A stretch of DNA of 64,000 nt from the human T2T-CHM13v2.0 reference genome, Homo sapiens: NCBI RefSeq assembly GCF_009914755.1, contig NC_060930.1; one strand, given 5' to 3'. A program made the position numbers and the translations under genes. The notes beneath the pieces were generated by a model. It was not told where the DNA came from. It made no database searches and saw only the letters and a list, made by a program, of their open reading frames with translations. Below, piece by piece: positions 4,310 through 7,300 of this stretch; the first letter of the stretch is position 1; the number at the start of each line of letters is the position of its first letter.

Positions 4310-7300
4310 GGAAAAAGAAAGACGACAGAGAAGCTGACCAAGAGTGATCAGAATAAATTATATTTCTCATTTACCCATTATACGGGATATACTAGACATC
4401 CCTCCCATTCTATTCAACTCCCATAAGTGCACTGCTTTTATATCTGGAGTAGCTCTTTAGTGCTCCTTCTCTACCTAACCAAGCTTTGACTGACAGTCAC
4501 TGGAGTTTTCCTCCAGAACGTGGTCATATCCCCTCATACTGCTCTGATCACCCTAACCACCTCCATAACCACCAGTCACACTGCTCTGACCTCCATAACC
4601 ACCACTCATACTGCTCTGACCTCCATAACCACCACTCAGCTGCTCTGACCTCCATAACCGCCTCCACAACCACCACTCACATTGCTCTGATCACCATAAC
4701 CACCTCATAACCACCACTCAGCTGCTCTGACCTCCATAACTGCCTCGACAACCACCACTTACATTGCTCTGATCACCATAACCACCTCCATAACCACCAC
4801 TCACACTGCTCTGACCTCCATAACCACCTCCATAACCACCACTCAACAGCTCTGATCACCATAACCGCCTCCACAACCACCACTCACATTGCTCTGATCA
4901 CCATAACCACCTCCATAACCACCACTCACATTGCTCTGATCACCATAACCACCTCCATAACCACCACTCACATTGCTCTGATCACCATAACCACCTCCAT
5001 AACCACCACTCACATTGCTCTGATCACCATAACCACCTCCACAACCACCACTCACATTGCTCTGATCACCATAACCACCTCCATAACCACCACTCACATT
5101 GCTCTGATCACCATAACCACCTCCACAACCACCACTCACATTGCTCTGATCACCATAACCACCTCCACAACCACCACTCACACTGCTCTGACCACCATAA
5201 CCACCTCCATAACCACCACTCAGCTGCTCTGACCACCATAACCACCACTCAGCTGCTCTGACCACCATAACCACCTCCACAACCACCACTCACATTGCTC
5301 TGATCACCATAACCACCTCCATAACCACCACTCACACTGCTCTGATCACCATAACCACCTCCATAACCACCACTCACATTGCTCTGATCACCATAACCAC
5401 CTCCATAACCACCACTCACATTGCTCTGATCACCATAACCACCTCCATAACCACCACTCACATTGCTCTGATCACCATAACCACCTCCATAACCACCACT
5501 CACACTGCTCTGATCACCATAACCACCTCCATAACCACCACTCACATTGCTCTGATCACCATAACCACCTCCATAACCACCACTCACATTGCTCTGATCA
5601 CCATAACCACCTCCACAACCACCACTCACACTGCTCTGATCACCATAACCACCTCCATAACCACCACTCAGCTGCTCTGACCACCATAACCACCTCCATA
5701 ACCACCAGTCACACTGCTCTGATCTCCATAACCACCACTCACATTGCTCTGATCACCATAACCACCTCCACAACCACCACTCACATTGCTCTGATCACCA
5801 TAACCACCTCCATAACCACCACTCACACTGCTCAGACCTCCATAACCACCTCCATAACCACCACTCACACTGCTCTGACCTCCATAACCACCTCCATAAC
5901 CACCACTCACACTGCTCTGATCACCATAACCACCTCCACAACCACCACCCACATTGCTCTGATCACCATAACCACCTCCATAACCACCACTCACATTGCT
6001 CTGATCACCCTAACCACCTCCATAACCACCACTCACATTGCTCTGATCACCATAACCACCTCCATAACCACCACTCACACTGCTCTGATCACCCTAACCA
6101 CCTCCATAACCACCACTCAGCTGCTCTGACCTCCATAACCACCTCCATAACCACCACTCACACTGCTCTGATCACCATAACCACCTCCATAACCACCACT
6201 CACACTACTCTGATCACCCTAACCGCCTCCACAACGACCACTCAGCTGCTCTGACCTCCATAACCACCTCCATAACCACCACTCACAATGCTCTGATCAC
6301 CCTAACCACCTCCATAACCACGACTCAGCTGCTCTGACCTCCATAACCACCTCCATAACCACCACTCACACTACTCAGACCACCATAACCACCTCCACAA
6401 CCACCACTCAGCTGCATAACTAGACTGGTTGGGTAAGCCCATCTCTCCCATCATTTGCCTACCATAAGCACCACCACTTGCCCCTGCTGTAGATTCAAGA
6501 AAAGTTCTACATAGGTGTGTTCATAAACCCCCCTACTTGTTCCTATAGCATTTAAAAAGATCTCCCTGTACCTGTGCTGCATATTAGCTTTGTCTTTTGC
6601 CATAGCTGCCACTGCATCTTCGTGAGCAGCAAACTCAACATCTGCCCTACCAGTAAACTCTGTCATCGTGTCCAATTTCAATATGTACTCTCATGAGGTT
6701 AAGAGGTGAATAGAAATTATAACAATCTTAGTGGCTCTGTAAGGTAAACCCCTCGTGTGTACACAGTGCCCTGTGGTGCTCTGGAAACTGGACCCACTAT
6801 CTCCGTATCTATGATCAGACATTCCTGAAAAACAGTAATTGCGGTCTTTTCCAAATCTATCAGACCTAAAGCCATATCCATCATTACAGCCACGATAGTC
6901 ATCATAGCCTCTATACCCTCCACCATAGGGACCCTGCCTCATCTTTTCAAACCCAGCTCCTCTGCCAATGCTATTACACCTCAGCCAGCCCCTGGCCTAT
7001 CACTGGGACCTGGCCACTGCACAGCCATGAGCTTCTGAGAGGGATCATAGTAGGTATGAACTTCAGCTTGGCTATTCTAGAAGATTTCAATGTACCTGTG
7101 CCCTATTCTTTCCCTGTGTTTCTTCAATGCCGTCTCAGCTATCTCCTGCGAAGCCAACTGCACAAAGGCTTCCCCTGTGCTTCTGCCCTGAAAGTCCACT
7201 CACAGTGTTATCCCATTTGGCACAATTTCCAACCCTGAAAAGAAATGAACAATCTCTTCCTTGGACAGCCAAATGGAAGTCCTCTAAGCCAGACGAAGCC

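What the first reader, a model, noticed from the sequence alone, without database searches (positions are those of the whole stretch)
4475..6450. A VNTR born inside a processed pseudogene, amplifying the hnRNP H GY-rich low-complexity segment in frame
Seen: the array sits between pseudogene codons ...MGLPNQSSY (6450-6416) and ...SSMRGYDHVLEENSSDCQSKLG* (4540-4475). The unit is 42 bp (14 codons, VSGGYGGGYGDQSN), so runs stay open for 108-148 aa; 40-bp units (…AGCAGCTGAGT…) shift the frame. Established: hnRNP H proteins have one LSGGYGGGYGGQSSMSG segment here. Inference: the LSG and MSG codons 42 nt apart gave the microhomology (TGAGTGG) for the first duplication. The origin of the minisatellite is therefore traceable, and translation would give a prion-like [G/S]Y[G/S] polypeptide.
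Basis: partly seen in the sequence, partly recalled or inferred. Interest (0 to 1): 0.7.

Follow-up and report, generated by a model that had tools for sequence, protein, structure and literature searches.

The report
Minisatellite born inside dead HNRNPH2 copy
A 1.9-kb human tandem repeat of 45 units sits inside a broken retrocopy of the HNRNPH2 gene, likely arose by mispairing at short repeats already present in that gene, is already catalogued as a variable repeat, and is unlikely to make a protein.

Summary
The array is real: 45 full units (34 of 42 bp, 6 of 41, 1 of 40, 4 of 29-30) replace one unit of the parent gene. The host is a processed pseudogene with a spliced exon junction, poly(A) and a 12-bp target-site duplication. 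Its parent is chrX HNRNPH2 (90%), not HNRNPH1 as the name says. Three short repeats in the parent match the three length classes (42, 41, minus 12), so the birth is traceable and fits known models. Three other family retrocopies keep one unit. 'In frame' and the prion-like peptide fail: the retrocopy frameshifts at codon 71, a 17-bp deletion shifts the array, and 41-bp junctions put stops in the GY frame. The locus is a catalogued length-variable VNTR, associated with MRPL18 expression in 13 GTEx tissues; causality is unknown. One new lead: the parent unit matches a PRDM9 binding matrix well (20.7 bits; 2 of 5000 shuffles), while the commonest array unit has lost it (7.7 bits). This hints at hotspot erosion but is post hoc (p about 0.02), and an unexpanded retrocopy scores higher. 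Verdict: an ordinary minisatellite with an unusually legible origin.

The parts
7774..7785 (-). 5' target-site duplication (12 bp); its twin follows the poly(A) tail at window-equivalent -2759..-2748 (locus L023:7241-7252)
7678..7768 (-). Remnant of the parent's non-coding exon 1, joined to exon 2 with the 3.6-kb intron absent
   Evidence: matches L022 2325-2421 at 79%; exon 2 starts at L022 6051 after a pyrimidine-AG acceptor
6416..7676 (-). 5' part of the HNRNPH2-derived retrocopy (annotated HNRNPH1P1); ATG at 7620, first frameshift at parent codon 71, first ORF 98 aa, 9 indels
   Evidence: K2P 0.090 over 1314 sites
6415..6416 (-). 17-bp deletion relative to the parent, directly 5' of the array; shifts the array out of frame with MGLPNQSSY
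4531..6415 (-). Minisatellite: a 5' partial unit, 45 full units (6378-4547; 34x42, 6x41, 1x40, 2x30, 2x29 bp) and a 3' partial unit; core homogeneous, edges diverged
   Evidence: single-locus in the genome, 37 matches here and 1 in the chrX parent
5252..5752 (-). Longest stop-free stretch in the GY frame (167 codons, no Met)
4846..5289 (-). Stop-free stretch of 148 codons; only Met at 5268, with 90 ATGs upstream in the retrocopy
5671..6009 (-). Stop-free GY stretch of 113 codons, no Met
4475..4546 (-). 3' end of the parental coding sequence (QSSMRGYDH...KLG*)
4304..4474 (-). First part of the parental 3' UTR; the rest lies at window-equivalent -2742..-2154 and ends in poly(A)
4142..4303 (.). 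Part of an Alu-like element inserted into the 3' UTR; its other part lies at about -2161..-2021 (family name from the recognisable sequence, no repeat library run)
1..4100 (+). LINE-1-like element (broken ORF2-like frames) inserted into that Alu, continuing left of the window; 94-95% identical to the 39 other copies listed
   Evidence: family name is my recognition of the translated frames

Best explanation
This is a single-locus, length-variable minisatellite inside a frameshifted HNRNPH2 retrocopy; it likely began when DNA strands mispaired at short direct repeats already present in the parent's Gly-Tyr-rich codons, likely grew by unequal exchange and conversion between units, and is likely untranslated and close to neutral. 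Shown: (1) a spliced, polyadenylated HNRNPH2 transcript inserted with a 12-bp target-site duplication; (2) the parent holds one unit bounded by an imperfect repeat, AGCAG-C-TGAGTGG and AGCAG-TA-TGAGTGG, with an internal 10-11 nt repeat at 12-nt spacing; (3) the array's classes are what exchanges at these repeats give: 42 bp (TGAGTGG junction), 41 bp (AGCAG junction, which restores the parent's upstream letters) and 12-bp-shorter units; (4) the array ends in partial units. Inferred: the mispairing event itself, the order of the 41- and 42-bp junctions, recent turnover of the core, an insertion age of some tens of millions of years, and that the MRPL18 association mostly tags a linked haplotype.
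For: Parent and processed nature: (the chrX protein is identical to solved hnRNP H2 chain 8sgh_B over residues 103-225, and differs from hnRNP H chain 6dhs_A). Repeat spacings 41, 42 and 12 in the parent. Unit classes. One 30-bp unit near the 3' end keeps the parental ATG junction, while 34 of 34 42-bp units carry the derived G. Nearest-neighbour differences total 9 in the first 10 units, 9 in the middle 25 and 13 in the last 10. Coding decay. Length variability: the locus is in the length-based eVNTR table, from which invariant loci were removed (PMC10234305). Both birth models are described in PMC3389668.
Against: The model does not say why this site in this copy expanded. There are 40 comparable repeat pairs in the parent exon. 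The chr5 retrocopy keeps TGAGTGG at both ends and has one unit; the second chrX retrocopy and the chr2 retrocopy also have one, though their seeds are damaged. No ape or monkey sequence and no second human allele was available, so dates and order are untested. Neutrality is assumed: 17 eQTL rows exist and the fine-mapping status could not be read.
Confidence: 0.78

Rival explanations
1. PRDM9-directed meiotic breaks shaped the array. The codons for GGYGG-QSSMSG happen to spell a PRDM9 site; breaks there would have driven unit turnover, and variants that weaken the site would have spread by hotspot drive. This adds to the birth model and does not replace it.
For: 43 of the window's 50 matches to the degenerate 13-mer (pattern recalled) lie in the array. 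With the published Human1 matrix (PMC5705219) the parent unit scores 20.7 bits; 2 of 5000 dinucleotide shuffles reach that. It is the best site in the parent's 2.2-kb exon, the next being 12.0. The two commonest segregating changes cost 5.9 bits (25 of 34 units) and 4.9 bits (19 of 34), ranks 12 and 18 of 126 possible changes, and the dominant unit's junction site falls to 7.7 bits. Permutation p = 0.024 for frequency-weighted loss. PRDM9 binds a motif-array minisatellite at VCX, and tandem repeats in hotspots are biased to insertion.
Against: The test is post hoc, on the best of 4 matrices tried: Human2-4 give 5.9-12.9 bits, and Human5-7 were not seen. The strict motif has 0 matches in the array. 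Only 2 of 15 observed variants are strongly damaging, as chance predicts (14% of changes), and 5 of 15 raise the score; Spearman p = 0.33. Synonymous recodings of the peptide reach the parent's score in 317 of 5000 cases. The unexpanded chr5 retrocopy scores 24.9 and the HNRNPH1 exon 22.5. Human hotspot activity is dated to 0.7-1.3 Myr (PMC4230742), far younger than the retrocopy. No hotspot or ChIP map could be consulted.
Confidence: 0.15
2. The array is itself a cis-regulatory element: its length lowers MRPL18 expression about 77 kb away, through chromatin or through effects on the long SOD2 transcripts in whose intron it lies in sense.
For: 13 tissues show a negative slope for MRPL18 (best p 8.7e-11), and two motif rows reach 4.5e-18 and 1.3e-14 (PMC10234305 Data S2, S3). 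The motifs occur 12 and 4 times in this array. The derived G gives 32 GTRAGT donor-like words on the sense strand, against 0 in the parent seed and 23 in the other 62 kb.
Against: The authors found only 1.7% of eVNTRs likely causal and most linked to nearby eQTLs. The two ACAT2 rows have opposite signs. No RefSeq enhancer or silencer is listed over the array in the annotation supplied. The fine-mapping file gave no hit even for a control gene, so it is uninformative.
Confidence: 0.12
3. The array is translated into a prion-like Gly-Tyr-Ser polypeptide.
For: Three stop-free GY-frame stretches of 113-167 codons exist. HNRNPH1P1 has measurable GTEx expression, since it appears as an eGene in thyroid.
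Against: The first ORF ends after 98 aa, there are 6 frameshifting indels upstream, and stops fall at 8 junctions and 5 TAG units. Two of the three long runs have no Met; the third Met has 90 ATGs (53 in strong context) before it. Frame-breaking units are common, so there is no sign of selection on a frame.
Confidence: 0.03
4. The array is an assembly artefact or a chance resemblance to hnRNP H.
For: None found.
Against: The same locus is about 2.04 kb in GRCh38, and its motif words were genotyped in GTEx. Both flanks join the parent in register.
Confidence: 0.01

Closest known systems
VNTR locus 65333, GRCh38 chr6:159,710,735-159,712,778 (Lu et al. 2023, PMC10234305, Data S2 and S3)
   Same: The same locus: it abuts HNRNPH1P1 (159,712,801-159,713,985), and its listed motifs occur in this array.
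   Different: The passages and rows seen say nothing of its origin. The GRCh38 interval is roughly 4-5 units longer than the CHM13 array if the boundaries are comparable (inference; that study widened many boundaries).
Minisatellite birth at non-contiguous or flanking 5-10 bp direct repeats (Taylor and Breden 2000; Haber and Louis 1998; seen only as described in PMC3389668)
   Same: A unique segment bounded by short direct repeats is duplicated, and the terminal unit is incomplete.
   Different: Here the unduplicated ancestor survives as a working gene, and three different parental repeats each leave their own unit class.
Transposable-element-derived tandem repeats (Ahmed and Liang 2012, PMC3389668)
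   Same: A tandem repeat that arose inside a retroposed sequence after insertion.
   Different: The seed is protein-coding sequence of a processed pseudogene; that paper's main text has 0 occurrences of 'pseudogene'.
PRDM9-motif minisatellites such as the VCX array (Altemose et al. 2017, PMC5705219)
   Same: Tandem units that carry a match to the hotspot motif.
   Different: Binding is shown at VCX and only predicted here; the strict 13-mer is absent and the commonest unit scores weakly.

Membership tests
Processed pseudogene | Intron removed at the exon junction | tested here: met
   Exon 1 (L022 2325-2421) abuts exon 2 (L022 6051) at window 7678/7676
Processed pseudogene | Poly(A) tail and target-site duplication | tested here: met
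   A-run followed by the 12-bp twin of 7774-7785
Processed pseudogene | Disabled reading frame | tested here: met
   9 indels, first ORF 98 aa
HNRNPH1-derived copy (as named) | Closest to HNRNPH1 | tested here: not met
   90% over 1229 nt to the chrX gene against 77-90% in short pieces to the chr5 exons; 5' exon and 3' UTR match the chrX gene
Minisatellite VNTR | Head-to-tail units of tens of bases at one locus | tested here: met
Minisatellite VNTR | Copy number varies among people | tested here: met
   From the literature: listed among length-based eVNTRs after invariant loci were removed; only one allele was read directly
Birth at flanking direct repeats | 5-10 bp direct repeats one unit apart in the ancestor; incomplete terminal unit | tested here: met
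   TGAGTGG at 42 nt and AGCAG at 41 nt in the parent; partial 3' unit
Birth at flanking direct repeats | Two-copy intermediate in an outgroup | not testable with these tools
   No primate genomes held (no relatives)
PRDM9-driven minisatellite | Motif match in the unit | tested here: inconclusive
   Degenerate 13-mer 43 matches and Human1 20.7 bits in the parent unit, but strict motif 0 and dominant junction 7.7 bits
PRDM9-driven minisatellite | PRDM9 binding, break hotspot or allele-dependent instability at the locus | not testable with these tools
   No peak list among the six supplements of PMC5705219 by name and size; the hotspot-map paper was not held
Coding VNTR | Array lies in one continuous ORF with a start codon | tested here: not met
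Causal eVNTR | Fine-mapped or experimentally shown effect | tested here: inconclusive
   Data S4 blank for the locus and for a control gene

The most novel reading that the evidence does not exclude
The codons of hnRNP H's Gly-Tyr tail spell a PRDM9 landing site. Freed from selection in a retrocopy, that site drew meiotic breaks that amplified it into a minisatellite, and hotspot drive then replaced the motif-bearing units by motif-dead ones, so that the unit order records a Red Queen cycle with the intact gene as its ancestor.
Probability: 0.1. Interest if true: 0.62.

Novelty: new member of a known kind. Interest (0 to 1): 0.27.

Why it matters
Minisatellite births are rarely traceable because the one-copy ancestor is lost. 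Here it survives as a conserved gene, and three sister retrocopies serve as unexpanded controls, so each unit class and each derived base can be polarised. That makes a clean teaching case and a usable test locus for whether PRDM9 erodes motifs inside VNTRs. Practical points: the pseudogene is named after the wrong parent and annotated short, and the repeat tags MRPL18 expression. None of this is a new kind of system.

Tried and rejected
Literature searches for a description of this repeat's origin: 'HNRNPH1P1' gave 1 paper, a TWAS methods preprint that mentions a lipoprotein(a) association. Minisatellite + processed pseudogene + hnRNP H gave 0; VNTR + SOD2 + WTAP 0; MRPL18 + VNTR 0; HNRNPH2 + pseudogene + 6q25 gave 1 unrelated listing. 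Supplement searches by coordinate or gene name were blank in PMC8327921 (3 files; 1 file not searched, so absence from the human-specific list is not shown), PMC11975116 and PMC11701250. PMC11326147 gave only one irrelevant row. Four papers were not held. G-quadruplex as the driver: mean G4Hunter 0.70, best 25-nt window 1.24, mostly GG doublets; weak and not pursued. Descent of the chr2 copy from the chr6 copy: they share 15 differences from the parent over 940 sites (3.8 double hits expected), but 13 lie in the 3' UTR and 4 at CpG, which fits changes on the parent's lineage; left open. PRDM9 matrices Human2-4 gave no notable match.

Full report
Observation. Tandem Repeats Finder reports a 42-bp array at 4619-6410 (43.5 copies, 88% matches, score 2681) with shorter-period pieces reaching 4559. 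Cutting at a fixed anchor gives 45 full units: 34 of 42 bp, 6 of 41, 1 of 40, 2 of 30 and 2 of 29; the commonest unit occurs 10 times. A genome-wide pattern search finds the unit 37 times in this array and once on chrX.

Host. The 5' flank's best match after itself is a chrX locus, 90% over 1229 nt; the chr5 multi-exon gene matches only in short pieces. The chrX locus holds an intact 449-aa ORF that matches a solved hnRNP H2 chain exactly over residues 103-225 and differs from hnRNP H. The parent is therefore HNRNPH2, despite the name HNRNPH1P1. The copy is processed: exon 1 is joined to exon 2, the 3' UTR ends in an A-run, and a 12-bp duplication flanks the whole. The 3' UTR was later split by an Alu-like element, itself split by a LINE-1-like element that is 94-95% identical to the 39 other copies listed (family names are my recognition). 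Divergence from the parent is K2P 0.090 (1314 sites) and 0.094 (249 sites). With a recalled neutral rate this means some tens of millions of years; that is inference. I recall an old mapping of hnRNP H' to both 6q25-26 and Xq22, but no call retrieved it.

Birth of the repeat. The parent has one unit. It is bounded by TGAGTGG twice, 42 nt apart, and by AGCAG twice, 41 nt apart, and holds an internal 10-11 nt repeat at 12 nt. Exchange at the first gives the 42-bp unit. Exchange at the second gives the 41-bp unit and restores the parent's upstream letters, as seen at 8 junctions. Exchange at the third gives the 30- and 29-bp units. One 41-bp unit fits neither junction cleanly, and the 40-bp unit carries an extra 1-bp loss. 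One 3' unit keeps the parental ATG junction; all 34 42-bp units carry a derived G. Edge units differ more from their nearest neighbours than core units (9, 9 and 13 differences in 10, 25 and 10 units), which suggests recent turnover of the core. This fits two published birth models, seen as summarised in passages of PMC3389668. The limits: 40 repeat pairs of 7 nt or more exist in the parent exon, and three other family retrocopies (chr5, a second on chrX, chr2) each keep one unit. The seed permits the event and does not compel it. Which junction came first cannot be told from one allele.

Translation. From the surviving ATG (7620) the frame breaks at parent codon 71 and stops after 98 aa; nine indels precede the array, the last a 17-bp deletion at its edge. 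In the GY frame each AGCAG junction reads Gln-Ser-Ser-stop, and 5 units carry TAG. The open stretches are 113, 148 and 167 codons; only the 148 one has a Met, with 90 ATGs upstream. A prion-like product is very unlikely by ordinary initiation. Unconventional initiation was not testable.

What is known. The array is locus 65333 in Lu et al. 2023 (PMC10234305). I saw 12 of 33 matching passages, all 17 rows for the locus in Data S2 and 2 rows in Data S3, which was cut when stored; Data S1 and the supplemental PDF were unreadable and may bear on allele lengths and causality. The 17 rows are MRPL18 in 13 tissues (all negative slopes), ACAT2 in 2 (opposite signs), HNRNPH1P1 in 1 and PNLDC1 in 1. The two listed motifs occur 12 and 4 times here. 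The fine-mapping file gave no hit for the locus or for a control gene, so it says nothing. The authors.7% of eVNTRs likely causal. Five text searches found no account of the repeat's origin; the library lacks most subscription journals.

A side lead. The C-rich strand matches the degenerate hotspot 13-mer (pattern recalled) 43 times in the array and 7 times in the other 62 kb. The strict motif quoted in passages of PMC4230742 has no match. I scored four matrices from part 1 of 5 of a source-data file of PMC5705219 (Human4 with 40 of 50 rows; Human5-7 unseen). Human1 gives the parent unit 20.7 bits, reached by 2 of 5000 shuffles but by 317 of 5000 synonymous recodings, and it is the top site of the parent exon. 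The three commonest derived changes all lower the score (-2.2, -5.9, -4.9 bits), and the dominant junction scores 7.7; 15 junctions still score 15 or more. Frequency-weighted loss gives permutation p = 0.024 and rank correlation p = 0.33. Against: the test is post hoc, only 2 of 15 variants are strongly damaging (the chance rate), 5 raise the score, an unexpanded retrocopy scores 24.9, and human hotspot activity is dated to about the last million years. Passages of PMC5705219 and PMC7615360 show that PRDM9 can bind motif-array minisatellites and that repeats in hotspots tend to gain units. The idea is plausible but unshown.

Verdict. The feature is real, already catalogued and mechanistically ordinary, with an unusually readable origin. 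Interest 0.27.

Noticed in passing
window 4304-7785 and L023:7241-7846: The pseudogene named HNRNPH1P1 derives from HNRNPH2, and its annotation (6362-7633) omits the exon-1 remnant, the array, the 3' coding end and the split 3' UTR.
   Followed up: yes
window 4531-6415, minus strand: The fixed A-to-G change gives 32 GTRAGT splice-donor-like words (0 in the parent seed, 23 in the other 62 kb), in sense within an intron of the long SOD2 transcripts of the supplied annotation; use in splicing or U1 binding is untested.
   Followed up: partly
L018 (G000:C2:226474728-226475097 region): An approximately 1-kb 5'-truncated HNRNPH2 retrocopy on chr2 has its own 11-bp deletion at the same seed edge where the chr6 copy has a 17-bp deletion, and shares 15 differences from the parent with the chr6 copy, two of them amino-acid changing.
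   Followed up: partly
window 1-4320 and L023:7840-10000: Nested insertions: retrocopy, then Alu-like, then LINE-1-like element; a usable relative clock for the locus.
   Followed up: partly
L003, L014, L002: The matching segment of HNRNPH1, HNRNPH2 and the chr5 retrocopy all score 20-25 bits on the PRDM9 Human1 matrix, so GGYGG-rich coding tails may be predicted PRDM9 sites more generally.
   Followed up: no
window 6362-7633: A TWAS preprint (10.1101/2024.10.21.619441, passages) reports HNRNPH1P1 with lipoprotein(a); from my recall LPA lies within about 1 Mb, so linkage is the likely cause.
   Followed up: no
window 21224-21306: The window's two strongest Human1 matrix sites (25.9 and 24.6 bits) lie in the GC-rich WTAP first exon region.
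   Followed up: no
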